DNA from: a virus
Length of the DNA: 64,000 bases
Reading direction: 5' to 3' (one strand)
IMG/VR virus record: IMGVR_UViG_3300042508_000910
This document shows positions 8,644 to 63,491 of the stretch, piece after piece; position 1 is the first letter of the stretch, and each line of letters begins with the position of its first letter. A model generated the notes under the pieces. That model was not told the origin of the DNA. It made no database searches and saw only the letters and a list, made by a program, of their open reading frames with translations. Made by a program: the position numbers and the translations under genes.

Positions 8644-11184
8644 TTATTTTTCTTTAATTTCTCCAAGTTTCATAAATATCTTATGATCTTGAATAGCTAT
8701 TAAGTCTGCAAAAACTGAATCTTCACTCTTTTTCCTTCCTCGAACAATTACTATATTATTTTCGTCTGGTAATACATTATTCATTTCTTTACATTCTTCA
8801 ATCTTATCGTTAAATATGAGAGCATTAATACTAGATGTTTCATCTTGAATATTAAGTCTTAGATATCTTGTCTTTTTACTGTTATTTGCCACGCCTAAAT
8901 ATTGGTCTTTAATAACCCCGATAAATAAAACTGGCAATCCTTCTGGAGCCTCATTAACTTCTCTAATATTAAGAAGATCTGGCTTTTGATCAGAAAAAAT
9001 ATCTTTTAATGTTGTATTATATGTATAACCTAATAGTTTATTTTCATAATACCAATTTGCAAATCTTTCGTTTTTACTATTCTGCTCGTAAATCTTCTTA
9101 TATGGTGTGTACGCTTTCCTAATTGTCTCTAGTCTAGAGTCTTTAATTATGTTCTTGCCTTTCTCGTCTTTAGTAGAATTAAGAAATTTAATTATCTTAA
9201 ATAGATCGTAATCAAATTTCTCTCCATACATCATTGCATATTTTTGTTCATTTTGATTAAGTATATTCCAAAGTTGAGCTTCTAAAACCACTTTACTTCT
9301 TGATTGTTTAAAGTTTTCTAAAGCTCCAGCTTGTATTAGCGGGGACAATACTCTAATAGATAGTTTAGCTTGTTGGGCAGATTTGAATACATCAAATTTT
9401 GTAGCATACTTATTCCTAAAATTATTAAGTCTTTCAATTGATTTATCTGATATACCCTTAATTGATAAAAGGCCGAATCTAATATCTTTATCTTCCACGC
9501 TAAAATCCATTTCAGACTTTACTATATGCGGTGGTAATAATTTAATATTAAATAGATCCATCTCTTTATGAATTTTAGATATTTCTGCAATAGGATCTGG
9601 TTCGAACCTAGTCATCTTTAGCAAAGATAAAAAGAATTCTTTGGGGTATTTAAATTTTAAATAGATTGTAATTGCTGCCAAAGCTGCATAACTTTGACTA
9701 TGACTTGCATTAAAAGAATAGTTTGCAGAATCTTCTAAGATCTTCCAAAGAACTTCTCCAACTTCTTTTGGTAGATTATTTTTTGTACATTTCTTTTCAA
9801 TCTTTTCTTTCCAAGCTTTAATTTCTTCTACCTTTTTCTTTCCTACAATTCTTCTTAGAATTTCTGCCTCGTCTAATGTAAATCCTATCTTATGTGCCAT
9901 TTGCATAAGCTGTTCTTGATAAAGAGCTACGCCCCCAGTTCTCTTTAGAATATCATCAAAAAATGGATGAATCGATTGAAAGTCTCCAGTTTCTACATAT
10001 TTAGCGTATTGATCTACGAATTGCAAAGCTCCAGGTCTAGCAAGAGCTAATACTCCACTCAATTCTTCTGAGTTTCTAGGCTTAACTTTTTTACAAACTT
10101 TAAAATTAGTATCTGCTTCAATTTGAAAAAGACCATGTGGACTTTTAAGGTCTTGCAATTGTTGGTAAATAAAATTATCTTCTATATCAATATCTTCAAT
10201 ATTTTTATTGATCATGCTACATACATCATAGACTACGGATACGCTTCTTAAACCTAATAAGTCTAGCTTAACATTAAATTGACTAATATCATTCATATCA
10301 AATGCGCTTACAGGCTCTTTGTCAGATGATAACTCTAATGGACAAGCATCGGAAAGTGGACTATGAGAAATTTGGACTCCAGATGGATGTACGCCTTTAT
10401 TTTTAATAAGATTGCGAAGCTTTAGAGCTATATTATATATCTCTGAATTTTCATCACACCATTCTTTAAACTTTTCTACCTCTGTATAAGCGTCAGCAAT
10501 ATCTTTAACTTGACCGAAAACCTTTGGAATTAAAGAGCTTACTCCAGTCATTTCAGTCTCACTTTTTTCATCAACAATCTTACCGCACTCTTTAATTAAT
10601 AGCTTTCCACTCAAAGTATTAAATGTAAGAATCTTGCTTATTCTATTAGGGAATATTTCATTAAGGAAATCTATAACTTTATGTCTATTATAATAACAAA
10701 TATCCAAATCTACGTCACACATTAAACTGCCGTCTAGATACGTTATTCCATCAACAACCTGCTTTTTAGCTCGAATCTTAGATATAAATCTTTCAAAATA
10801 AAGGTTATGTTTAATTGGGTCAATCTTTGTCACCCCAATAAGATATAAAATAAGACTTCCTGCTGCACTTCCTCGACCTAGACCAGTTGGTATTTTATTC
10901 TCTTTGCAATAATCAATAACAAGCCAAACTAAAATAATATAATCAATAAAGCCTAAATCTTCTATAATCTCAAATTCATGATCGAGTCTCTTTTTGTATT
11001 CTTTGCTTTGTGGTAAATTTGAATAAGCAAGCTTTTTTAAGAATTCTGTATTTGATGCATCTTCTGATAAACCTAGATTTCTTTTATGATCTACCTTTAC
11101 TTTAAATTCTGGTAGTCTTACTCCATACAAAGGCAAATCAATCTTATCGAATGAATTAACAAAATCAGAACTCTTCGTCATCAT
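8644..11184 (-). CDS. dnaE: DNA polymerase III alpha, catalytic core lacking the PHP domain
   Basis: GLGRGSAAGSL, CDVDLD, HPSG, KLDLLGL, LYQEQ, YSFNASH, IRFGLLSIKG, C-terminal OB fold. Confidence 0.95.
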   Translation of the reverse strand: MMTKSSDFVNSFDKIDLPLYGVRLPEFKVKVDHKRNLGLSEDASNTEFLKKLAYSNLPQSKEYKKRLDHEFEIIEDLGFIDYIILVWLVIDYCKENKIPTGLGRGSAAGSLILYLIGVTKIDPIKHNLYFERFISKIRAKKQVVDGITYLDGSLMCDVDLDICYYNRHKVIDFLNEIFPNRISKILTFNTLSGKLLIKECGKIVDEKSETEMTGVSSLIPKVFGQVKDIADAYTEVEKFKEWCDENSEIYNIALKLRNLIKNKGVHPSGVQISHSPLSDACPLELSSDKEPVSAFDMNDISQFNVKLDLLGLRSVSVVYDVCSMINKNIEDIDIEDNFIYQQLQDLKSPHGLFQIEADTNFKVCKKVKPRNSEELSGVLALARPGALQFVDQYAKYVETGDFQSIHPFFDDILKRTGGVALYQEQLMQMAHKIGFTLDEAEILRRIVGKKKVEEIKAWKEKIEKKCTKNNLPKEVGEVLWKILEDSANYSFNASHSQSYAALAAITIYLKFKYPKEFFLSLLKMTRFEPDPIAEISKIHKEMDLFNIKLLPPHIVKSEMDFSVEDKDIRFGLLSIKGISDKSIERLNNFRNKYATKFDVFKSAQQAKLSIRVLSPLIQAGALENFKQSRSKVVLEAQLWNILNQNEQKYAMMYGEKFDYDLFKIIKFLNSTKDEKGKNIIKDSRLETIRKAYTPYKKIYEQNSKNERFANWYYENKLLGYTYNTTLKDIFSDQKPDLLNIREVNEAPEGLPVLFIGVIKDQYLGVANNSKKTRYLRLNIQDETSSINALIFNDKIEECKEMNNVLPDENNIVIVRGRKKSEDSVFADLIAIQDHKIFMKLGEIKEK

Positions 11185-44688: not shown

Positions 44689-44760
44689 TTGATAATAAAT
44701 TACACTAAATTAAAAATTTAATTACACTATTATAGTATATATCCCTTAAGAGATATACCT

Positions 44761-45177
44761 TGGACCCGAGAGGAGTTGAACCTCTGTCTTTTAAAAAGTT
44801 AAATTAAAATACTACAAGTTTAGCCTATTCCGTTGTTTCGCAATAGTGTCGAACAGGCAATCGGGCTATTGCTATTTATTTAATTCTAGATCTGGCCTTG
44901 GTCAAATCTAGCCATTATAATCAATTTAAAAATCAAATAAAAAGGATTTAAACTGATACATCTAAATACCCACTAGTCTAGTAGATGTGTCGTAGATAGC
45001 AGGTCGCAGGTTTTAGGCTGCGATTAGGGAGTCCTTCTTGTGAGAAACTCTCAAGGAGAAACTACCCTTTAACTTAGCTGGTTTGGCAGTTAAGTATTTT
45101 AAAGTTGTTTAAAGAGTCCACTTTAACTCTACTTGCATTCTAATTCCAATTTTTAAAATCGATACCAGTACGGGCCC
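44761..45177 (-). ncRNA. ssrA: tmRNA (one-piece, 417 nt, CCA not encoded)
   Basis: 5' GGGCCCG pairs with 3' CGGGTCC-A with a G3.U70 wobble; T-arm AGAGG-TTCAACT-CCTCT; pk1 AGAGT/ACTCT plus AAAGT/ACTTT; TAACT-GCC resume site; tag ORF 45087..45013 AKPAKLKGSFSLRVSHKKDSLIAA*. Confidence 0.95.
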
Positions 45178-45210: not shown

Positions 45211-45426
45211 TTATACTTTACTTAAAAGTTTTTTGCAATCTTTTTTATATATAAATATAAATTTTAATCTAACTCCGTTTACATCTGAACTTAAATATTG
45301 TTGAGCTAAACAAGGATATTCGTCAGGACAATAATTTGTGTCAATATCTTTTTCATCAATATTATAATTTAAGGCTTTTTGCTTTTTATATTTATTCCAG
45401 CCATTTTCATTTTTTATTACTTCCAT
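45211..45426 (-). CDS. Hypothetical protein (likely start MEVIKN)
   Basis: PDEYPCLA motif; the longer start overlaps the divergent promoter. Confidence 0.55.
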   Translation of the reverse strand: MEVIKNENGWNKYKKQKALNYNIDEKDIDTNYCPDEYPCLAQQYLSSDVNGVRLKFIFIYKKDCKKLLSKV

Positions 45427-45446
45427 AAAAAAATTATATAAAAAAA

Positions 45447-45475
45447 TTGACAAAATTCAAAGATCTTTGTATTAT
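45447..45475 (+). promoter_or_regulatory. Sigma70-type promoter for the putative ncRNA
   Basis: TTGACA-17-TATTAT with no credible CDS downstream. Confidence 0.75.
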
Positions 45476-45481
45476 AAGCTA

Positions 45482-45790
45482 TTGACATAGCCTTCTTATT
45501 ATAGGCAATTTTGATAGTTTTATAGAAAACTGTTTAGTACATGGTTTCAAGAGATAGCAACGCTGTGAAGACTTGCGACTATGAAAACCCTCATTGTGCA
45601 TTATATGGCTTTGAGGTTAATGTGTGGATGTATGGGACGGCAGTATGTACAGGGAGTAAGCCACCTCGCCCCTATAAGTGCCGTAGTCTGTTTCCTCGCA
45701 AGAGGAAAATGGGAGTTAAAAGAAAAGTAGAGATCTTGTACTAGGCACAACCTCAATATAAAAAATCTGAGGGAAAGTCTTCTATGGGAT
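45482..45790 (+). ncRNA. Putative structured ncRNA of unknown family
   Basis: More GC-rich than flanks; several long-range helices, a GCAA tetraloop hairpin (45691-45708) and a crossing helix 45535-45548/45730-45743. Confidence 0.6.
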
Positions 45791-45822
45791 ATTAAAGAAA
45801 AGTTAATAATTAAGATAAGATA

Positions 45823-46338
45823 CTAATACCAAACTTCATTATGAATTCTTCTCAATACTCTAATCCAATTCTTTAGGTTATAAGATATATCATCTCTTTC
45901 TGCAATCTCAAAACCATTCTTAGCTATATTATAATAAATACTTTCTGATGGATATGATCTTCTCAACTTCTCTAAACTCTTATAGAAAAAGCCAAGAAAT
46001 ACTGTGACAGATTTTGCTGTATCTTCATTTAATTCTAATTGAAAGAAATATTTATTCTGAAGTGGATATTCTATGAGATTATAAAAATTGCTACTTACAG
46101 CTTCTGATATATATTCCTTCTCTTCAAAAGAACATTTTATATCTTTACTATATTTTACTATTGTAAGCTCTGTGAATACTGGGAAACTAATATCTACTAT
46201 ACCATTTATATCTTCTTCTGTAACTTTATTTATTATTTCTGGTAAGCAATCTGGATCTTGTATAAGCAAAAAGGTTTTTTCTGGTGATAAACCTAGCTTC
46301 TTTGCAAAAAAATCTATATCCCTCTCTGAAACCGTCAC
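45823..46338 (-). CDS. Hypothetical protein
   Basis: 171 aa ORF. Confidence 0.6.
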   Translation of the reverse strand: MTVSERDIDFFAKKLGLSPEKTFLLIQDPDCLPEIINKVTEEDINGIVDISFPVFTELTIVKYSKDIKCSFEEKEYISEAVSSNFYNLIEYPLQNKYFFQLELNEDTAKSVTVFLGFFYKSLEKLRRSYPSESIYYNIAKNGFEIAERDDISYNLKNWIRVLRRIHNEVWY

Positions 46339-46717: not shown

Positions 46718-47782
46718 TTATAGCTTTAAATTATCAAAATCATCGTCAGATATGTCTGTTTTTCTTGCGCCTATTTTATATGTTGAAATTTCTGTTTCTT
46801 GTGGTGCAACTTGAACTTTGCTACTGTCGAGATAGCTATCTAACCAGCCAGCGATAGGATTATCTTTTTGATTGAATATCTTTTTATATCCTAATGATCT
46901 CAAGCGAGCATCACAAAGCCATTTTGAATATCCACCTAGAACTTCAGCATTTAAACCTAATAGAGAGCCATTACTAAAAAGATATTCCGCCCATTCAATC
47001 TCATTCTTAGCGGCTTGTTCATAAAACGCATATATTTTATCTTCACTTTTTTTGACTATAGAAGTAAAACCTTCTTTATCTTCTTCCTTAAGAATCTTTA
47101 GAAGATTTTGAGTAGTAGCAAAATGTAAAGCTTCATCTCTTTGAATAAACTTGATGATTTTAGCATTTCCTTCCATTTTACCACGATATCCAAAATAGAA
47201 AGAGCAGGCGAATGAGACGTAAAATACAAGACCTTCCATTACATTAACAGAAAGAATACAATCAAATATCTTTTGTTTTAAGTCTTTCTTATCATCATCG
47301 CCAAGAATTTTATCAAAATTATTTCTAATTAACTCGGCACGAGATACGATTTCTTTATCTTCCATGATGCTATCGAAAAATTTACTAGCATCTGGATGTA
47401 CATTATTTAATAGATATGAATAAGAGTAACTGTGAATACCCTCAAATCTTTGCCAAGTATTCATACATATTTCAAGCTCTGGATTGCTTACATAATCTTT
47501 AAGAGAATGTATACTTCTCGAAAGCATGCTATCACCAAGAGTTTGGAATTTTAGATTAGTGTCAAATACAAATCTTTCTTGACCAGCAAGCTCTTTATAA
47601 TCGCTACGATCTTTATTAAGAGCGATTTCATGAGGCCACCAGAAAAATTCTTCTTGCTTCTTAAACAATTCAAAGAAAATAGGATATTTAAAACGATCAT
47701 ATCTTTGAAGATTAAGATCTTCTCCAAAGAATAGAGGTTGTTTTGTATAATCTATATTTTTTAAATTTAAAACACTTTTCAT
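46718..47782 (-). CDS. nrdB: Ribonucleotide reductase class Ia beta subunit
   Basis: WWPHEI, GDSML, EGIHSYSY, EGLVFYVSF, DEALH, VAPQETEI. Confidence 0.96.
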   Translation of the reverse strand: MKSVLNLKNIDYTKQPLFFGEDLNLQRYDRFKYPIFFELFKKQEEFFWWPHEIALNKDRSDYKELAGQERFVFDTNLKFQTLGDSMLSRSIHSLKDYVSNPELEICMNTWQRFEGIHSYSYSYLLNNVHPDASKFFDSIMEDKEIVSRAELIRNNFDKILGDDDKKDLKQKIFDCILSVNVMEGLVFYVSFACSFYFGYRGKMEGNAKIIKFIQRDEALHFATTQNLLKILKEEDKEGFTSIVKKSEDKIYAFYEQAAKNEIEWAEYLFSNGSLLGLNAEVLGGYSKWLCDARLRSLGYKKIFNQKDNPIAGWLDSYLDSSKVQVAPQETEISTYKIGARKTDISDDDFDNLKL

Positions 47783-47785
47783 AGG

Positions 47786-50047
47786 TTATAATTTACACGC
47801 TCCAGAAGAACAATCACGATCTTCTTTTTGATTCATTAATTGTTCTTTATCTCCATCATCAGTATTATTGTAATAAAGACTGATTAAGCCTAAAGAATAT
47901 GCAAGCATTATTTCTTTCATAACTTTTGCATCAGGAAGAACATTGTTTTCATAATGAGAATAGTTATAGTATACATTAGTTGATATGGCCATGTCAATGT
48001 ATTTTTGAATTATAGCGTTTACTTTTAGTAGACCAGAATTATCTTTAAAATCATAAGCTAATTCATAATTACCATCATACTTTCCTACTCCTGGAACTAA
48101 TACTGGAAGTTTACCCATTTTACTCATTTTATAAGTAATTAAACTACGAATAGGTTCAACTCCATTTGTTGAAGATTGAATTACGGAACTACTCTCACAA
48201 GGCATGCATGCAGAAAGAGTAGAATGTCTTAAACCAAATTCTTTTATTTCTTTTCTTAGTTTTTCCCAATCAAGAGACAATTTTCTTTTACATAATTCAT
48301 CTACTTTATCTTTGTAAGTATCAATAGGTAAAATGCCTTTTGAATATTTTGTCCTATCAAACTTCTCGCACTTACCCTTTTCTTTAGCAAGTTCTAGGCT
48401 TGACTTTAAAAGATAGTATTGAAAATGCTCCATCCACTCATCTAATACAGGCAAGCATTTATCTGAATTATATTTTAATTCACTCTTAGCGAAAAAAGCT
48501 GCAAGATTAGTTATTCCAACACCAAGACTACGACGTTTTTTAGCAAAATTTTCAGCAGCAATATTAAAGTAATCTTGAATTTCAATGATTTCATCAAGAA
48601 ATCTTACGATAAGATCGCAAGTCTTTTCAAGATCTTGCCAGTTTTTTATTTCTAACATATTCACTGCTGAAAGAATACACATTCCAATTTCGCCTTCTTT
48701 ATCATTATAATCATTTAGTGGAATAGTTGGATGTATAACTTCTGTACAAAGATTACTCATTGTAACTTTATCCAACCAAGCGCCATGATTGTTAGCATGG
48801 TCTACATTAAGAATATATATTCTACCAGTTTCAACTCGTTCTTTAATAATTAGAGAGAATAATTTACGAGCAGATACTTTCTTTTTAATTTTTAATTTTT
48901 TAGATTCACATTCTTTATATATCTTATCAAAATCTTTTGTACCCCAAGCTTCATATAATTCTGGTACTTCTGCTGTATTAAATAGAGTAATTTCTTCGTC
49001 CTTAAGAACTCTATCATAGAACAACTTACTCATTCCAACTGTATAGTCTAACTTTCTTACTCTATTATCATCTGTTCCAGCATTATTCTTTAATACTACA
49101 ATATCTTCTATTTCATAATGCCACCATTGTATATTGCATGTTGCACTTCCACCTCTTAACCCATTTTGTTGCCAAGCTTTTACGCTACTTTCATATATTT
49201 TTAGAAATGGAATTAAGCCAGTATGAACAACTTCACCATTCTTAATAGGCGATCCTATAGCTCTAACTTTTGAGACATCAATACCTATTCCACAACGATT
49301 TGCTGTAGCCATACTTACTGCAGTTGCACTAGCGGTAATACTTTCTTTACTATCATCAACACCAATTAAACAACAACTTGCGTAATTTTTAGTAGATGTC
49401 CTAACTCCTGCCATTACTGGAGTTGGTAAATTAATCTTGTGCTTGCTAATAGCATCATAAAATTTACGAACATAATTTAAACGTGTCTCTTTTGGATAAT
49501 TTATAAAAGCATAAGCAGCAATTAATACATAAGCAAATTGTGGAGTCTCATATATTAAACCGTTTGTTCTATTTTTTATTAAATATTTATCGCATAATTG
49601 TTTAATACCAGCATATGTAAAATTATAATCTCTATCGTGATCTATAAATTCGCCTATTTTATTTAGCTCATCTTCATCATACTTTTCTAATAGTATTGAA
49701 TCATAGATTTTATTTTTTATGTTATTTTGTATAAATTCTAAAAGTCTTGGAGCATGTTTACCTTTCCAAACTTCTTTTCTCAATTGATAATTTAAAAGAC
49801 GACTTGCAACATATTGGTAATTTGGACTAGATATTGATATTAAATTTGCTGCACTTTCTATTAGTAGTTTATGGATTTCTTTCGTTGTAATCCCTTCATG
49901 CATATTGATATTAGCATTGATTTCTATATCTGTTAGACTTACTCCAGAGTAACCATCTATTGCCCATTTGATTACTTTATTAATTTTTTCTATGTTAAAT
50001 TTTTCAGTTGATCCATTGCGTTTTTTGACGAGTAAGTTTTTATTCAT
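47786..50047 (-). CDS. nrdA: Ribonucleotide reductase class Ia alpha subunit with ATP cone
   Basis: VKKRNG ATP cone, PTPVMAG, ASCC, SNLCTE, MPCESSS, C-terminal CSSGACKL. Confidence 0.97.
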   Translation of the reverse strand: MNKNLLVKKRNGSTEKFNIEKINKVIKWAIDGYSGVSLTDIEINANINMHEGITTKEIHKLLIESAANLISISSPNYQYVASRLLNYQLRKEVWKGKHAPRLLEFIQNNIKNKIYDSILLEKYDEDELNKIGEFIDHDRDYNFTYAGIKQLCDKYLIKNRTNGLIYETPQFAYVLIAAYAFINYPKETRLNYVRKFYDAISKHKINLPTPVMAGVRTSTKNYASCCLIGVDDSKESITASATAVSMATANRCGIGIDVSKVRAIGSPIKNGEVVHTGLIPFLKIYESSVKAWQQNGLRGGSATCNIQWWHYEIEDIVVLKNNAGTDDNRVRKLDYTVGMSKLFYDRVLKDEEITLFNTAEVPELYEAWGTKDFDKIYKECESKKLKIKKKVSARKLFSLIIKERVETGRIYILNVDHANNHGAWLDKVTMSNLCTEVIHPTIPLNDYNDKEGEIGMCILSAVNMLEIKNWQDLEKTCDLIVRFLDEIIEIQDYFNIAAENFAKKRRSLGVGITNLAAFFAKSELKYNSDKCLPVLDEWMEHFQYYLLKSSLELAKEKGKCEKFDRTKYSKGILPIDTYKDKVDELCKRKLSLDWEKLRKEIKEFGLRHSTLSACMPCESSSVIQSSTNGVEPIRSLITYKMSKMGKLPVLVPGVGKYDGNYELAYDFKDNSGLLKVNAIIQKYIDMAISTNVYYNYSHYENNVLPDAKVMKEIMLAYSLGLISLYYNNTDDGDKEQLMNQKEDRDCSSGACKL

Positions 50048-54332: not shown

Positions 54333-55274
54333 TTAAATGATACCTAAATCAACTAATAATTGCAAATCATATTTCTTATGAAAACAATTACCAGTTAATA
54401 TTTTAATTAATAATTCAGATGCTCTTTTTCTACCATCAGCAAATATAAATTGTATATTATCATACTTTTGATTTAGTTCTCTTACTCTATGAAAGATAAA
54501 TTCTGGAGTAGCTTTAATCTTCTTGGAAATATGAGGAAGATAATTAAAAGAAAGTGCATCAGTTATAGACTCCTCAATTAGTACTACTAGATAATAATTA
54601 GCGTTCTTAGCTCTTTCTATCTCATTATTAAATCGATCATATCCAGCACTCATAGTTCCTATAAAGTCTGATAAATTTTTTCTTTCAACTGCTGTAAAGC
54701 AACACTTCTCAAGATCATTTAATGTATAATCCCCAAAATCTAGTTTAGCTATTTGCTGTTGGTATTTAAATTTCAAAGGATTTTGCTCTCTTGTGTCCAC
54801 CATAATCTGATATCTTTCAGATTCTTCAAAATTTAGCTCTTCTCCAATATAGTTACTAAACTTATTCTTTAGTCCAATAGAATTACATATATCATAATAA
54901 TCTAATTTATATTTATTAAAAGTAATAATTGAAGGCATAATTAATGATCGAAGCTCAACTTGAGTTGGGGAATATATTAGAGATTTACGCTCTTTTCTTT
55001 TGATTAGTAATTCTGTTAGGAATTTTTTTAATTCGTCTTGACTGAGATTCTTAACATAAGCCTTTAAATTATTTTTATTATTAAAGTCATCTGTAAAATA
55101 TTGATCTTTATTCTTGAAATTAATCATCTCGCCAGATTGTAAATCGTATCTGGGATAATATTTTTGATAATACTCTGCTGTAGTAATTTTATGAGCTTTT
55201 AGATGCAGATGTAGAAATTTATCTGCTGCAAATATTTCGTTGCATATTTTACATTGAATTTGCATTTCATCCAT
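54333..55274 (-). CDS. C2H2 Zn finger plus ERCC4 (XPF/Mus81-type) nuclease
   Basis: CKIC...HLKAH; VDTREQ, GDY, VERKNLSDF. Confidence 0.85.
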   Translation of the reverse strand: MDEMQIQCKICNEIFAADKFLHLHLKAHKITTAEYYQKYYPRYDLQSGEMINFKNKDQYFTDDFNNKNNLKAYVKNLSQDELKKFLTELLIKRKERKSLIYSPTQVELRSLIMPSIITFNKYKLDYYDICNSIGLKNKFSNYIGEELNFEESERYQIMVDTREQNPLKFKYQQQIAKLDFGDYTLNDLEKCCFTAVERKNLSDFIGTMSAGYDRFNNEIERAKNANYYLVVLIEESITDALSFNYLPHISKKIKATPEFIFHRVRELNQKYDNIQFIFADGRKRASELLIKILTGNCFHKKYDLQLLVDLGII

Positions 55275-56346
55275 TCAAGATTTCGTCTTTAGAAATTCCC
55301 ATAATTCTAGCCTTAATTTCATCTATTGTAGATAGCCTTTCTACTTCTTTAGCTAGTAATTCTTTTCTCATTTCTGCAAGCCTTATCATTTCTTTTCGAC
55401 TTTCTTCTTCTTTCCAAATCTCAACTAGATTTAATATTGAAGCATTTTCTTTTACTTGCTTACTTAATCTTTCGCTTCTTTTTACTTTTAGATCACTTAA
55501 AAGTTTTTGTTGACGACCAACGCTTTGATTATATTCATTTCTAGCTGTACTGATAGCTTCCACAAGCGACATAGATATTTTTTCACCAGCCTCAACAGCA
55601 GCGTCTAATTGCATCTGTAATGCTTGAATTGTTCCTTGAATGTTTGAAGATATAACTACCTCTGTAGCTAAAACAATGTATTGATCTACTTCTTCTTGAG
55701 TCAGATCATTCTTATCATAAGTATATCTTACAAAACTACTTTCGAATAATTCTCTTTCGCTTTCATCTTGATATGTATTAATTTGATGAAGGAAACGATA
55801 AGTATGTAAATAACCAATTAAAGATTGTATATCCCTTTTTTGTTTTCCTGTTAGTTTATTTTCATCTATGCCTTCATGAACATATCTATTGATTCTAGCT
55901 AAACATCTATTTTGAGTTGTAGGTGGCTTGTAGTCTCCTTCTGGTATTTCATTTGGATTTGCATATACAAGTTTAGTATCTAAAGTCTTAATATATTCTG
56001 CAACGCTTCTTGTTTCTTGATTTAAATTAGTCAAATCATTATTTTTAAATATTATTTTAGCCATTTCAACAGCTGTCATTGTAGGACAATTATTGCTTAT
56101 ATATTCTTTTTGCTCATCTGTTAATTCGATTAAACCTTTAGCTTCATATTCATGACTCTTTTTAGGAACAATTTGTCTAGAAGCCAAATAATTTTTAATT
56201 AATTTACCCTGTTGACTTCTTCCATCAAAACCTTCTCCAAAAATTAATTTAGTTAATTCTGCAAGTGATGGAGGATTAGAAGGACGAGAATTCCATTCTT
56301 CAAGTATCTTCTTCTTATGGTCATCTGTTAGAATTATTTCATTCAT
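55267..56346 (-). CDS. Hypothetical helical protein, possible terminase small subunit
   Basis: HTH-like N-terminus, coiled-coil C-terminus, position upstream of terL. Confidence 0.35.
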   Translation of the reverse strand: MNEIILTDDHKKKILEEWNSRPSNPPSLAELTKLIFGEGFDGRSQQGKLIKNYLASRQIVPKKSHEYEAKGLIELTDEQKEYISNNCPTMTAVEMAKIIFKNNDLTNLNQETRSVAEYIKTLDTKLVYANPNEIPEGDYKPPTTQNRCLARINRYVHEGIDENKLTGKQKRDIQSLIGYLHTYRFLHQINTYQDESERELFESSFVRYTYDKNDLTQEEVDQYIVLATEVVISSNIQGTIQALQMQLDAAVEAGEKISMSLVEAISTARNEYNQSVGRQQKLLSDLKVKRSERLSKQVKENASILNLVEIWKEEESRKEMIRLAEMRKELLAKEVERLSTIDEIKARIMGISKDEILNG

Positions 56347-57020
56347 GATATATCAATCTCATCACTATAAATATATTTTTTAACTTTAATCATTATTGCT
56401 TTTTTAATATTTTGGACCTGCTTATATCCAGGAGCACGATTTTTTTCGTTTGTTCTATATCCCATACTAGAAGCCACTTGGTCTTCATCTTTATGCTCTA
56501 TATAAAGCATTTGATAAACTTTCCACTCAGTTGGTTTTAAAACTTGCTGCATCTTACGATGAATATTTTTTGCGCTTTCTTCTATATCTACTTTTCCATC
56601 TTGCATTTCATGTACTTCTTTTGTATGATTTTCTAAAGCAAGAGGCAGTTTAGTATCATGTGCATTCTTTTTATTCTTTTCCCAAGCCGCATAAAGAGGG
56701 CAAGCGTTACATTGTTTGCCATATATGTTGCAATGCTCATCATCTTCAGCAGCAGCACATTTTAAACATGGACGAGAATAATTACCATAGTTATTACGAA
56801 TGAGATTTTTAATTTGATTACTTACTATTCTGTTAATCCATGGAGCTAATGGCTGCTTTGGATCATACATATTCCATTTCTTATGGATATGTATTCTTAG
56901 TATTTGTGCAACATCATCAAAATCCATCCAAGCAAGCGAAGTCAAATTCCACTTATGCTTTCGCTTGTAGATTTCAATATTTATTTCGTTAAACTTATTT
57001 TCAAATGTTGGTTTTTTCAC
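56343..57020 (-). CDS. Sigma70/ECF-like phage sigma factor with Cys-rich insert
   Basis: MDFDDVAQ...YDP...WINRIVSNQIKN (region 2); LKPTEWKV...QVASSMG (region 4). Confidence 0.75.
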   Translation of the reverse strand: MKKPTFENKFNEINIEIYKRKHKWNLTSLAWMDFDDVAQILRIHIHKKWNMYDPKQPLAPWINRIVSNQIKNLIRNNYGNYSRPCLKCAAAEDDEHCNIYGKQCNACPLYAAWEKNKKNAHDTKLPLALENHTKEVHEMQDGKVDIEESAKNIHRKMQQVLKPTEWKVYQMLYIEHKDEDQVASSMGYRTNEKNRAPGYKQVQNIKKAIMIKVKKYIYSDEIDIS

Positions 57021-57432: not shown

Positions 57433-58179
57433 CTACTTTTTATTATTATTTTTAGGTGTAGATAGTTCTTCGAATTTTTCAATAATATATGCTAGTATAT
57501 CATTTCGCATAATATCATCTGTTCCAAATTTAAATGTTTGTATACCTTTTTCTTTACTTTTTTTATCATCAAAAAGATCATATATAGATTCAAAACCACT
57601 ATTCTTAATATCTGATTGTCTAATATCTCCAATTAATATAAGCTTACTAAATCTTCCCATTCTAGTAGTTATCAATAATAAATCATGTATACTTAAATTT
57701 TGAGCTTCGTCACATATAATGTAACTAGCATTAATACTTAATCCACGAAGAAAACCTACTGGTAGTCCCTTAACCCTCTCTTCTTTTAACAATCTTTCGA
57801 CTTGTGATTTAGGTAATAATTCATGGAGCTTATCCATAAGTGGTTGTAAATATGGATCTAACTTACTGTGTAGATCTCCTTTTAAAAATCCAAGATTATG
57901 AGTAGAACTCTCTACAGGATTACGAATATAGAATATTTCACCTATTTTCTTATCATTTAAGGATTTTAAAGCAGAATATACTGATAATAGACTCTTGGCT
58001 GTTCCAGCAGGACCTTTGCATAATACTATCTTAGTCTCTTTATTCTGTATTAATTCTATGAATTTTTTTTGATTATCTGTCCATTGTAATTCACGAATAT
58101 CTAGAAAACCTTCAATTTTATCTCTTTGAGGAACTACTGGTGACTTATCTTGTGCTTTTTGTTTGTGTTTCTTAGACAT
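57433..58179 (-). CDS. phoH: PhoH-family ATPase
   Basis: GPAGTAKS, LGFLKG, FLRG, DEAQN, TRMG, GDIRQSD. Confidence 0.93.
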   Translation of the reverse strand: MSKKHKQKAQDKSPVVPQRDKIEGFLDIRELQWTDNQKKFIELIQNKETKIVLCKGPAGTAKSLLSVYSALKSLNDKKIGEIFYIRNPVESSTHNLGFLKGDLHSKLDPYLQPLMDKLHELLPKSQVERLLKEERVKGLPVGFLRGLSINASYIICDEAQNLSIHDLLLITTRMGRFSKLILIGDIRQSDIKNSGFESIYDLFDDKKSKEKGIQTFKFGTDDIMRNDILAYIIEKFEELSTPKNNNKK

Positions 58180-60909: not shown

Positions 60910-61515
60910 TTATATTTTATCAAACAAATCCTTACTTGTCAATTTATTTTTTAGAATTTGAACACCTTTATTATGTAAATTAATTGCATTTTGCGTACTC
61001 ATGTTCATCTTCTTACCTATTTTTGTCCAAGTTTGAGTCGTATCAGTTTCAAAATATCTCATGTTAAATATTTTGGATATTCTCTCATCCTTTAATTGGT
61101 CTAATAGTAGCGTTATATATTCTTTTAATTCTACCAACTTATTAGTGTTCATATTGTTTTGATTTTGCTGATCAATTATATTTGCTAAATCTTTAGTCTC
61201 CATATAAATTATATCTTCTTTTTTGTTTATCGTATTTAAACAATGGTATCTTATTTGATTGCCTAGCCAAGTAGAGAATTTAACTTTTTTACTTAATTTA
61301 AAAGACTTTGCAGATTTATATATAACATAATCTTTCTCTCTGCATACTTCATCAATATCTATATTTTTAACCCCAAATGATGGTGAATATTTCTTGTATA
61401 TTTTATAACAAAGAGGAGAATGTCTTGCTGATAGAATTTTTAAGCTATCTTCACAATTAAGATTCTTTATTCTTTTTATAAGATATTCGTCAGTTTTATC
61501 ATCTAGTCTTTTCAT
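60910..61515 (-). CDS. Second sigma70-like factor
   Basis: KSAKSF...KFSTWLGNQIRY (region 2); IFNMRYF...TWTKIGKKMNMS (region 4). Confidence 0.8.
   Translation of the reverse strand: MKRLDDKTDEYLIKRIKNLNCEDSLKILSARHSPLCYKIYKKYSPSFGVKNIDIDEVCREKDYVIYKSAKSFKLSKKVKFSTWLGNQIRYHCLNTINKKEDIIYMETKDLANIIDQQNQNNMNTNKLVELKEYITLLLDQLKDERISKIFNMRYFETDTTQTWTKIGKKMNMSTQNAINLHNKGVQILKNKLTSKDLFDKI
60914..60942 (-). promoter_or_regulatory. Sigma70-type promoter (leadered, with SD)
   Basis: TTGACA-17-TAAAAT inside the 3' end of the sigma gene. Confidence 0.7.
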
Positions 61516-62588: not shown

Positions 62589-62666
62589 ATGGAAATAACC
62601 TTAATTCTAATAATGTCTTTATATATCTATCATAGACTAGGGGTAATGGCTTCAAAAACTAGATGA
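62589..62666 (+). CDS. 25-aa hydrophobic peptide MEITLILIMSLYIYHRLGVMASKTR (not in ORF track)
   Basis: ATG 6 nt after TATAAT (62577-62582); its stop overlaps the dCMP deaminase start (ATGA). Confidence 0.55.
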   Translation: MEITLILIMSLYIYHRLGVMASKTR

Positions 62667-63082
62667 ATAGAATATCTTTTGAAGATATGGCTATTGAAAT
62701 AGCTATTATTGCATCTAAGCGATCAGAAGATCCACATAAGAAAGTCGGAGCATGCGTATTAGACAAGGATGGAAAAGTTCTTGGAGTTGGATACAATGGT
62801 ATAAGAAAAAAGCAGACAAAATCCGATGAATTTTGGTCTGATAGAGATAATAGAAGGAAATATATTATACATGCAGAAGTTAATGCTCTTTCAAATGTAG
62901 ATACTACTAAGGCTAATCTGTTAGCGGTGACTTTACTTCCATGTACTAGCTGTGCAAATTTTATAGCTTCTCATAATATTGAGAAGGTTATTTATCTAGA
63001 AGAATATGATAAAGATCCTCAATCTAAAGACATTTTTAAATTTCATAATATAGAACTTATCAAGTATGAATCCAGAAGTTAA
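62663..63082 (+). CDS. dCMP deaminase
   Basis: RSEDP..KVGA, GYNG, HAEVNAL, PCTSC. Confidence 0.92.
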   Translation: MNRISFEDMAIEIAIIASKRSEDPHKKVGACVLDKDGKVLGVGYNGIRKKQTKSDEFWSDRDNRRKYIIHAEVNALSNVDTTKANLLAVTLLPCTSCANFIASHNIEKVIYLEEYDKDPQSKDIFKFHNIELIKYESRS

Positions 63083-63491
63083 ATTTAAAAAATTATTTGA
63101 TAAAGCTCAAAATATAAACGATGAATATAAATCTTCTATATACTCAATATCTAGCGCAGAAAGGTGTTATGTAGCTCCTGGAGAAAGAAAAAAAATAAAG
63201 ACATTTCTAGAGATAAATATTCCTTCTGGTTTTTTCGGACTTATCCAACCAAGAAAAGATGAATATTTAAGAATTGGTCTCAATGTATTTCCAGAGATAT
63301 TATATCCAGAAGATAAAAAAGAGTTGCAATTGGTAGTAACTAATGTTAATATTCCTAAATCACCATTTTTTATGAGCGATAAAGAAAGATTCCTTGGAGA
63401 TAAATCTAAAATAGATATTTATATTGGAGACAAGATATGTAATTTTATTATCTTGCCTATTACAGAATTTAATGTAAAAGAAGTCTTATGA
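63066..63491 (+). CDS. dUTPase-fold protein with degenerate active site
   Basis: VAPGERKKIKT...IPSGFFGLIQPR...IGDKICNF; catalytic motifs missing. Confidence 0.7.
   Translation: MNPEVKFKKLFDKAQNINDEYKSSIYSISSAERCYVAPGERKKIKTFLEINIPSGFFGLIQPRKDEYLRIGLNVFPEILYPEDKKELQLVVTNVNIPKSPFFMSDKERFLGDKSKIDIYIGDKICNFIILPITEFNVKEVL

What the first reader, a model, noticed from the sequence alone, without database searches (positions are those of the whole stretch)
45447..45790. Unassigned ~300-nt pseudoknotted RNA divergent from the tmRNA
Seen: a near-consensus sigma70 promoter fires into the only long intergenic gap apart from the tmRNA. Nested helices: GAAGACTT 45567-74/AAGTCTTC 45775-82; CCCTCA 45588-93/TGAGGG 45768-73; TTGAGGTT 45611-18/AACCTCAA 45749-56; ACGGCA 45637-42/TGCCGT 45679-84; hairpin TTTCCTC-GCAA-GAGGAAA 45691-708. 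A 14-bp helix 45535-48/45730-43 (one mismatch, two G.U) crosses them, and GACTATG 45577-83/CGTAGTC 45682-88 is an alternative pairing. The G.U pairs and GNRA loop fit the + strand. I cannot match it to a family. Inference: a new phage ncRNA (ribozyme, protein sponge, 6S-like regulator or replication primer RNA).
Basis: partly seen in the sequence, partly recalled or inferred. Interest (0 to 1): 0.8.

Follow-up and report, generated by a model that had tools for sequence, protein, structure and literature searches.

The report
New knotted RNA gene of lake phages
This gene-free gap of an uncultured freshwater phage is a separately transcribed gene for a roughly 320-base, intricately folded non-coding RNA that matches no catalogued RNA family; it carries two matching single-stranded purine-rich tracts, and its job is still unknown.

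Summary
The feature is real. Window 45485-45807 (+) is a ~320-nt non-coding RNA gene with at least 65 relatives in three clades of uncultured freshwater phage contigs.

- **Promoter:** all 50 relatives with enough upstream sequence have TTGACA, a 17-nt spacer and TAnnAT, 6-10 nt before a conserved ACAUAGC.
- **Fold:** twelve helices (76 pairs) are 94.4% canonical, and 48 pairs show compensatory changes. No shuffle of 500 reached either value.
- **Pseudoknots:** three helices left out of the alignment model also covary.
- **Strand and coding:** G.U outnumbers A.C 161:32, which puts the RNA on the + strand. The 67-aa ORF is already broken in a 91%-identical relative.
- **Known families:** Rfam 15 gives nothing meaningful for any clade at E<=10.

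Its two long nested helices are not conserved; those strands form two local hairpins.

Two single-stranded tracts, NNNGGA(N)UYAAA(A)GAAAAGU, change together: C,C or U,U, never mixed.

Function is unknown. My best guess (~0.3) is a rigid scaffold or decoy RNA with two identical sites for one bivalent partner. Rivals are a self-assembling RNA, a ribozyme or switch, and a primer RNA.

The scan found this family before on other genomes.

The parts
45447..45475 (+). Sigma70-type promoter: TTGACA (45447-52), 17-nt spacer, TATTAT (45470-75)
   Evidence: 11 of 12 matches; all 50 relatives with enough upstream sequence have TTGACA, a 17-nt spacer and TAnnAT, 6-10 nt before ACAUAGC.
45485..45807 (+). 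The ncRNA gene (~323 nt; 304-323 nt in relatives). The 5' end is inferred from the promoter and conserved ACAUAGC. The 3' end is the end of sequence conservation; no terminator was found.
   Evidence: Covariance-model hits over the full model length; alignments A3 and A4; no terminator-like site on +.
45490..45506 (+). P0 hairpin: GCCT 45490-93 / AGGC 45503-06
   Evidence: helix 1: 100% paired, 3 of 4 pairs covary.
45514..45533 (+). P0b hairpin: ATAGTTTT 45514-21 / AAAACTGT 45526-33. Clade-specific register; clades B and C use GTTGA/TCAAC and GTGGAT/ATCCTC.
   Evidence: helix 2 (4 of 5 pairs covary, 86% paired on an imperfect alignment).
45535..45548 (+). PK1 5' strand; pairs with 45730-45743 (long-range helix closing the core)
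   Evidence: helix 3: 9 of 9 pairs covary, and this helix was not part of the model.: -9 to -27 kcal/mol in all 26 sequences tested.
45554..45582 (+). SL1 stem-loop: ATAG 45554-57 / CTAT 45579-82 and CGC 45561-63 / GCG 45575-77. The loop carries GAAGACTT 45567-74.
   Evidence: helices 4 and 5: AU<->GC at one pair; CG<->UA 27:24 at another.
45567..45574 (+). P2 5' strand (the SL1 loop); pairs with 45775-45782 (pseudoknot)
   Evidence: helix 6: 99.4% paired, 4 of 7 pairs covary, not in the model.
45589..45616 (+). P3 local hairpin: CCTCA 45589-93 / TGAGG 45612-16, with a conserved loop TTGTRCATNANATGGCT
   Evidence: (helix 7, 5 of 7 pairs covary).
45624..45629 (+). PK2 5' strand GTGGAT; pairs with AGCCAC 45659-64 inside the P7 loop
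   Evidence: helix 8: 98% paired, 2 of 6 pairs covary, not in the model.
45637..45684 (+). P6 (ACGGCA 45637-42 / TGCCGT 45679-84) enclosing P7 (AGGG 45651-54 / CCCT 45670-73)
   Evidence: helices 9 and 10: 98% and 94% paired; 3 of 9 and 4 of 5 pairs covary.
45691..45708 (+). P8 hairpin: TTTCCTC-GCAA-GAGGAAA
   Evidence: helix 11: 97% paired, 7 of 8 pairs covary.
45711..45728 (+). Purine tract 1: GGGAGTTAAAAGAAAAGT, predicted single-stranded, nearly invariant
45730..45743 (+). PK1 3' strand GAGATCTTGTACTA
45751..45772 (+). P9 local hairpin: CCTCA 45751-55 / TGAGG 45768-72
   Evidence: helix 12 (95% paired, 4 of 8 pairs covary).
45775..45782 (+). P2 3' strand AAGTCTTC
45786..45803 (+). Purine tract 2: GGGATATTAAAGAAAAGT, the 3' tail, which changes in step with tract 1
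   Evidence: C,C 40; U,U 11; mixed 0; at least 2 changes on the tree; 14 more relatives, none mixed.

Best explanation
Window 45485-45807 (+) is an independent gene for a stable, compactly folded non-coding RNA. It belongs to an uncatalogued family found in AT-rich freshwater phages.

**Shown**
- The family has an invariant host-type sigma70 promoter.
- Twelve helices are supported by covariation. A long-range helix (PK1) closes a core made of SL1, P3, P6/P7 and P8.
- Two further pseudoknots exist: the SL1 loop pairs with a 3' strand (P2), and a joining strand pairs with the P7 loop (PK2).
- Joining regions are highly conserved.
- There is no conserved ORF.
- Two single-stranded purine tracts stay matched to each other as the family diverges.

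**Inferred**
- Host RNA polymerase transcribes the gene without needing phage factors.
- The knotted core acts as a rigid scaffold. It presents the two identical GGA...YAAAGAAAAGU tracts to one bivalent partner, so the RNA works in trans as a ribonucleoprotein scaffold or decoy. The partner could be a dimeric or two-site RNA-binding protein of phage or host, or a repeated pyrimidine-rich nucleic acid.

I put 'real new ncRNA gene' at about 0.95 and this particular mechanism at about 0.3.
For: - **Relatives:** 60 and 28 covariance-model hits, with overlap, plus 14 full-length metagenome hits found from an anchor that does not include the tracts.
- **Promoter:** conserved in 50 of 50 relatives with enough upstream sequence.
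- **Structure:** 94.4% canonical against 84.7% shuffled; 48 of 76 pairs change on both sides; 0 of 500 shuffles reach either value; slid controls give 31-50%.
- **Pseudoknots:** the three pseudoknot helices were not in the model and still covary.
- **Strand:** 161 G.U against 32 A.C.
- **Non-coding:** the ORF is broken in all relatives.
- **Known families:** no Rfam family at E<=10 in three clades.
- **Presence in RNA libraries:** metatranscriptome contigs of four studies cover relatives of 45505-45809, and none crosses the promoter.
- **Twin tracts:** the Y position is C,C in 40 and U,U in 11, never mixed. The tree needs at least 2 changes. The three bases before GGA also agree between the tracts within each clade. 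The same holds in 14 tract-independent hits.
Against: - No partner has been identified. Pfam finds no family in the three neighbouring ORFs, and none of 27 other window proteins scanned matched an RNA-binding family.
- Strong conservation of joining regions is more typical of ribozymes and other RNAs with demanding tertiary folds than of simple sponges.
- Two sites is few for a sponge.
- No neighbouring protein gene is conserved across all three clades.
- The transcript's strand, ends and abundance are not measured, because only contigs were available.
- The tracts' identity could equally reflect alternative intramolecular pairing or a DNA-level protein site.
Confidence: 0.55

Rival explanations
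1. Self-assembling 'ornate' RNA. Like ROOL, GOLLD and OLE, the RNA forms an RNA-only homo-oligomer. The loop-strand pairings supported by covariation (SL1 loop with the 3' strand, or with the second RGYCY copy) would then form between molecules, not within one.
For: - There are two copies of the RGYCY element complementary to one loop, so one copy is always left free for a second molecule.
- A self-complementary GAUAUY sits in the invariant tail, and self-complementary hexamers sit in the P3 loop.
- Large phage-associated RNAs of unknown function are known to form cages (PMC12286853).
- Covariation cannot tell pairing within a molecule from pairing between molecules.
Against: - No similarity to ROOL or GOLLD in Rfam.
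- Short palindromes in AU-rich loops are expected by chance (my estimate: about 0.2-0.6 per loop).
- Nothing here tests oligomerisation.
Confidence: 0.15
2. Ribozyme or two-state switch. Hairpin loops (the SL1 loop, possibly the P0 loop) recognise two copies of one module, [RGYCY - U-rich - NNNGGA..YAAAGAAAAGU]. The RNA then toggles between them, or processes itself at the second copy, which would make its own 3' end.
For: - No terminator follows the conserved tail.
- The joining regions are nearly invariant.
- Alignment columns 89, 209 and 315 change together.
- The P0 loop is UCCAA in clade B and UCCUA in clade C, matching UUGGA and UAGGA in both tracts.
Against: - The P0-loop pairing fails in L055 and in most of clade A.
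- The first RGYCY copy is also explained by an extension of P6.
- RNA contigs run 69-112 nt past the conserved end, although strand and molecule are unknown.
- No match to any known self-cleaving class in Rfam.
Confidence: 0.12
3. Replication primer or R-loop RNA. The purine tracts form stable RNA-DNA hybrids with the pyrimidine-rich template and prime DNA synthesis. The comparison to ColE1 RNA II or retroviral polypurine tracts is from my own knowledge.
For: - A strong promoter, no terminator, and a purine-rich 3' tail followed by AT-rich DNA.
- The phage encodes its own DnaE-type polymerase.
Against: - There is no change in GC skew at the locus; skew follows gene orientation.
- The position relative to neighbouring genes varies between clades.
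- A 12-helix conserved fold is more than priming is known to need.
Confidence: 0.06
4. The conserved tracts are DNA-level sites (an operator or iterons for a co-evolving phage DNA-binding protein), or the transcript is a cis-antisense regulator of the convergent 171-aa gene.
For: - Two direct repeats that stay identical are typical of protein-binding sites.
- The RNA ends 16 nt from the stop codon of a convergent gene, and RNA contigs run on into it.
Against: - The tracts lie inside a transcript whose other ~290 nt are constrained at the RNA level.
- The convergent 171-aa gene is replaced by other neighbours in several relatives and in clade C.
- No -10 element follows the -35-like reverse complement of the tracts (read directly from the sequence).
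Confidence: 0.05
5. The region encodes the 67-aa protein (45541-45744), and the apparent structure is incidental.
For: An intact ATG-started ORF exists in the window.
Against: - The start codon and reading frame are lost in the 91%-identical relative L104, and every other relative has 2-8 in-frame stops.
- Substitutions are compensatory in stems and do not follow codon periodicity.
Confidence: 0.01

Closest known systems
ROOL and GOLLD (large 'ornate' phage and prophage ncRNAs; Rfam families; cryo-EM in PMC12286853)
   Same: A large, complex-folded, multi-pseudoknot RNA carried by phages, apparently free-standing, with no known biochemical function and highly conserved joining regions.
   Different: No sequence or structure match in Rfam 15. 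It is about 320 nt, whereas those RNAs are several hundred nt longer (from memory). It sits beside a tmRNA gene, not in tRNA clusters. Oligomerisation was not tested. The twin purine tracts have no counterpart that I know of.
tmRNA (RF00023)
   Same: A pseudoknot-rich stable RNA. A phage tmRNA gene lies 300 nt away and is divergently transcribed in clades A and B.
   Different: No tRNA-like domain and no tag reading frame. ARAGORN and Rfam find only the genuine tmRNA at 44760-45177. In clade C locus L054 the tmRNA lies 10 kb from the RNA, and none was found within loci L041 and L053.
6S RNA (RF00013)
   Same: A host sigma70-driven, trans-acting RNA that could act as a decoy. The phage encodes two sigma70-like proteins, so sequestering the host holoenzyme would make sense.
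   Different: 6S RNA is a long rod with a central bubble (established knowledge). This RNA is a branched, pseudoknotted fold. There is no Rfam hit.
CsrB/RsmZ-type protein-sponge RNAs
   Same: Repeated, identical single-stranded motifs containing GGA that could bind a homodimeric protein.
   Different: Only two sites, embedded in a rigid 12-helix fold, where a sponge has many sites on simple hairpins. The host is unknown, as is whether it has CsrA.
Candidate structured RNAs catalogued from IMG/VR (PMC10690425)
   Same: The same data source (IMG/VR intergenic regions) and the same covariation-based logic. A fragment of this RNA may be among the 8495 unnamed candidates.
   Different: Those candidates are 29-151 nt long. 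The supplementary files are not held, so membership could not be checked. No full-length model, promoter or twin-tract description is given there.

Membership tests
tmRNA (RF00023) | A tRNA-like domain formed by the 5' and 3' ends, plus an internal tag reading frame | tested here: not met
   Rfam and ARAGORN call only 44760-45177. No hit in 45300-45900 at E<=10.
6S RNA (RF00013) | A largely double-stranded rod of about 180 nt with a large central bubble | tested here: not met
   The covariation-supported fold is branched, with three long-range or pseudoknot helices. No Rfam hit.
Bacterial RNase P RNA (RF00010/RF00011) | The P4 pseudoknot with its conserved CR-I and CR-V sequences, and a P1-P3 framework | tested here: not met
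   No Rfam match at E<=10 in three clades. The 5' and 3' ends do not pair with each other, so there is no P1.
Group I intron (RF00028) | Interrupts a gene; P3-P8/P7 core with a guanosine-binding site; exons that rejoin into an ORF or RNA | tested here: not met
   It has its own promoter directly upstream. It lies on the strand opposite the flanking ORFs. No Rfam hit.
ROOL / GOLLD | A match to the Rfam covariance models | tested here: not met
   No hit at E<=10.
ROOL / GOLLD | RNA-only homo-oligomeric assembly | not testable with these tools
   Needs native gel or cryo-EM. Only weak sequence hints exist (a free second RGYCY copy and palindromic loops).
phi29-type packaging RNA (pRNA) | Encoded by phi29-like podoviruses near a genome end; about 120-174 nt; intermolecular loop-loop pairing | tested here: not met
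   No Rfam hit. The phage is large (related contigs of 120-172 kb) and has a T4-type terminase.
Primer RNA of ColE1 RNA II type | The transcript forms a persistent hybrid at an origin and is cut to prime DNA synthesis | tested here: inconclusive
   No GC-skew switch at the locus, but skew here follows transcription, so it is uninformative. No terminator.
Protein-coding gene (67-aa ORF) | The reading frame is conserved in relatives | tested here: not met
   The frame is broken in all relatives tested.

The most novel reading that the evidence does not exclude
The RNA is catalytic or self-organising, not a passive scaffold. One or two hairpin loops recognise two copies of the same sequence module. 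The RNA would then either define its own 3' end by self-processing at the second copy, or link molecules head-to-tail into an RNA-only assembly. The concerted evolution of the two modules would be the signature of that shared recognition.
Probability: 0.2. Interest if true: 0.9.

Novelty: categorically new. Interest (0 to 1): 0.75.

Why it matters
Complex-folded RNAs of this size with this much covariation are rare. Historically most have turned out to be ribozymes, riboswitches, ribonucleoprotein cores or, recently, RNA cages.

- **Ecology:** this one is carried by a widespread group of large AT-rich phages of lakes. DNA matching the window is held by at least 16 lake or freshwater metagenome runs, and relatives appear in four metatranscriptome studies.
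- **Expression:** it is driven by a perfect host-type promoter, and it usually sits back-to-back with a phage tmRNA gene.
- **Testable clue:** two single-stranded tracts stay identical to each other through at least 2 independent changes. This is a concrete clue to a bivalent partner or a two-state mechanism.
- **Tractability:** the RNA is small enough for chemical probing, cryo-EM and pull-downs.

If the function is found, it would show how phages of streamlined freshwater bacteria use RNA to take over their hosts.

Tried and rejected
- **Rfam:** run at gathering threshold and at E<=10 on the window and on clade B and C representatives. Only chance-level hits came back: CRISPR-DR57 at 16 bits, Termite-leu, RybB and similar.
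- **Cultured phages:** no DNA match for the RNA and no protein match for the 171-aa neighbour. The 461-aa structural protein is at most 42% identical to cyanophage proteins.
- **Whole genome:** none is held for this window.
- **Tail-motif scan of viral contigs:** no new clade, only copies cut by contig ends and chance matches.
- **Prokaryote genome scan:** It is L272, a 9.5-kb contig binned with a freshwater Actinomycetota MAG and cut at the contig end. This is at most a weak host hint, or a mis-binned contig.
- **Pairing of the tracts with the cognate phage tmRNA:** the best duplex sites differ from phage to phage, so there is no conserved site.
- **Complement of the tract in the window:** not enriched, 28 matches against 27.4 expected.
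- **Tracts as mimics of translation-initiation regions:** the phage's gene starts do not look like the tracts.
- **Origin of replication:** no skew switch at the locus.
- **P0 loop pairing with both tracts:** one covariation between clades B and C, but it is broken in L055 and in most of clade A. Left open as weak.
- **RNA-binding partner among window proteins:** Pfam found none among the 30 proteins scanned.
- **Catalogue of PMC10690425:** the supplementary files are not held.
- **Metatranscriptome contigs:** they cannot give strand, ends or level. The absence of cover over 45840-46200 says nothing, because the reads come from relatives.

Full report
**What is there.** The window is a piece of an uncultured, AT-rich (~27-30% GC) phage.
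- Nearly all genes lie on the - strand.
- It encodes a DnaE-type polymerase, ribonucleotide reductase, a T4-type terminase, PhoH, nucleotide-metabolism enzymes and two sigma70-like proteins.
- A complete tmRNA gene lies at 44760-45177 (-).
- Between a small divergent ORF (45211-45453, -) and a convergent 171-aa ORF (45823-46338, -) lies a 45% GC island that is G-rich on the + strand.
- Rfam 15 finds nothing there beyond a 16-bit chance match, even at E<=10.

**Relatives.**
- The 171-aa neighbour led to 35 IMG/VR loci, and 24 of them carry DNA 67-91% identical to 45551-45800.
- A scan for one invariant motif, followed by a covariance model, raised this to 60 hits in new loci plus 28 in the first set. 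The two sets overlap.
- A separate metagenome scan was anchored on a different part of the RNA, the SL1 stem.
- The sequences fall into three clades. Clade A has 9 sequences and includes the window. Clade B is the majority. Clade C has 5 and is the most divergent.
- DNA matching the window is held by lake-water and freshwater metagenomes.

**Promoter, extent and strand.**
- All 50 relatives with enough upstream sequence have TTGACA, exactly 17 nt, then TAnnAT. The conserved ACAUAGC follows 6-10 nt later.
- In the window these elements are at 45447-52 and 45470-75, so the RNA should start at about 45485.
- Conservation ends at ...AAAGAAAAGUUAA (about 45807), 16 nt before the stop codon of the convergent gene.
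- No terminator-like hairpin follows.
- In the paired columns, G.U cells outnumber A.C cells 161 to 32, which places the RNA on the + strand.

**Structure.** I built a second covariance model from a 51-sequence alignment and aligned all copies to it. I then counted 76 pairs in 12 helices.
- 94.4% of cells are canonical, against 84.7% in shuffles (0 of 500 reach the observed value).
- 48 pairs change on both sides (0 of 500).
- With partners slid by 1-3 columns, only 31-50% of cells pair.

The helices are:
- two 5' hairpins, P0 and P0b;
- a long-range helix, PK1 (45535-48 with 45730-43), which encloses SL1, P3, P6/P7 and P8;
- a 3' hairpin, P9;
- a pseudoknot, P2, between the SL1 loop (45567-74) and 45775-82;
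- a pseudoknot, PK2, between 45624-29 and the P7 loop (45659-64).

PK1, P2 and PK2 were deliberately left out of the model, so their alignment is not fitted to them. They still show 9 of 9, 4 of 7 and 2 of 6 covarying pairs. PK1 forms a duplex of -9 to -27 kcal/mol in each of the 26 sequences tested.

Four of its helices are right, as are the promoter and the strand.
- Its two nested long-range helices, CCCTCA/TGAGGG and TTGAGGTT/AACCTCAA, do exist in the window. They pair in only 76/64/40% and 54/51/48% of cells in clades A/B/C.
- The second has a weak duplex (-3.6 kcal/mol or weaker) in 16 of 26 relatives.
- The same four strands form two local hairpins, P3 and P9, which covary in all clades. 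In the window the two hairpins happen to have near-identical stems, which explains the mispairing.
- The proposed alternative, GACTATG/CGTAGTC, is not conserved.

**Not coding.** The 67-aa ORF loses its start codon and frame in a 91%-identical relative. Every other relative has 2-8 in-frame stops.

**Presence in RNA libraries.** Contigs from four freshwater or lake metatranscriptome studies cover relatives of 45505-45809.
- None extends upstream across the promoter.
- Two run 69-112 nt past the conserved 3' end.
- Contigs give no strand, ends or abundance, so this is supportive only.

**The unusual part.** Two tracts predicted to be single-stranded are nearly invariant in every clade: 45711-28 (...GGAGUYAAAAGAAAAGU) and 45786-803 (...GGAUAUYAAAGAAAAGU).
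- The Y is C in both tracts (40 sequences) or U in both (11), and never mixed.
- The tree needs at least two independent changes. One of them lies in a well-supported subclade deep inside clade B.
- The three bases before GGA also match between the two tracts within each clade: AUG in A, UUU in B, and (N)NA or YUA in C.
- The 14 copies found without using the tracts as bait behave the same way.
- Upstream of each tract lies a short RGYCY element complementary to the SL1 loop, and the three alignment columns involved change together.

The 3' third of the RNA therefore looks like two copies of one module, with the first interrupted by hairpin P8. Something forces both copies to stay alike. I could not find the partner.
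- The cognate tmRNA has no conserved complementary site.
- The phage DNA is not enriched for the complement.
- The P0 loop matches the tracts in clades B and C but not reliably elsewhere.

**Context.** In clades A and B the RNA is usually back-to-back with the phage tmRNA gene. In clade C locus L054 the tmRNA lies 10 kb away, and none was found within loci L041 and L053. No neighbouring protein gene is conserved across all clades. There is no GC-skew switch at the locus.

**Interpretation.** That this is a real, new, structured ncRNA gene is close to certain. The mechanism is inferred.
- The invariant host-type promoter suggests transcription by unmodified host polymerase.
- The conserved joining regions and three long-range pairings suggest a demanding three-dimensional fold.
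- The concerted twin tracts suggest one partner with two identical sites, or two alternative states.
- I rank a bivalent scaffold or decoy RNA first (~0.3). A self-assembling RNA (0.15), a ribozyme or switch (0.12), a primer RNA (0.06) and DNA-level or antisense readings (0.05) follow. Protein coding is excluded.

**Known families.** tmRNA, 6S, RNase P, group I intron, ROOL/GOLLD and pRNA each fail at least one defining feature tested here (see the membership table).
- The closest in kind are ROOL and GOLLD, which are large phage-borne RNAs that assemble into RNA-only complexes (PMC12286853). There is no detectable homology to them.
- A large catalogue of short candidate structured RNAs from IMG/VR exists (PMC10690425; 29-151 nt) and may contain a fragment. 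That could not be checked.

**Earlier scan notes.** The same family was reported on other genomes, with the same verdict: a new class of unknown function. One note mentioned the identical tracts. I tested that claim here and extended it.

Noticed in passing
window 44760-45177 (-): A complete phage-encoded tmRNA (110 bits) with an unusual 24-residue tag, AKPAKLKGSFSLRVSHKKDSLIAA. tmRNA genes were found in 8 of 12 related loci scanned, usually within 1 kb of the new RNA and divergent from it.
   Followed up: partly
window 56343-57020 (-) and 60910-61515 (-): Two proteins with weak matches to sigma-70 region 2 (E 1.8e-5 and 3.7e-4). The phage may redirect host RNA polymerase with its own sigma factors.
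   Followed up: no
window, - strand: 35141, 35979, 38631, 43281, 44699, 44721, 46696, 52488, 58197: The motif GTGTAAW recurs 10-25 nt upstream of many - strand gene starts, in short intergenic gaps, and twice upstream of the 461-aa structural gene. It is not enriched overall (18 matches against 15.5 expected), but its placement suggests a phage-specific promoter or start signal.
   Followed up: partly
window 45211-45453 (-): A small lysine-rich ORF transcribed divergently from the RNA promoter. Its start (TTCCAT on the + strand) recurs about 20-30 nt upstream of the -35 box in most relatives. It is absent in L109, L128, L055 and L019, and has a different sequence in clade C. No Pfam family.
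   Followed up: partly
L272 (RGER01000055.1, 9.5-kb contig of a freshwater Actinomycetota MAG), 1406-1512: The only copy of the RNA family found in the prokaryote genome collection, cut off by the contig end. It is either a mis-binned phage contig or a weak hint to the host.
   Followed up: no
L104 (same contig as L002) and L019: In L104/L002, about 190 nt is inserted between the RNA and the 171-aa gene. In L019 the RNA lies about 1.3 kb from that gene. The RNA gene therefore moves as its own unit.
   Followed up: no
window 8644-11184 (-), 46718-50047 (-), 54333-55274 (-), 57433-58179 (-), 62663-63491 (+): DnaE-type Pol III alpha, class I ribonucleotide reductase (both subunits), an ERCC4-family nuclease, PhoH, dCMP deaminase and dUTPase. 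This is the replication and nucleotide-metabolism gene set of a large lytic phage with no close cultured relative.
   Followed up: partly
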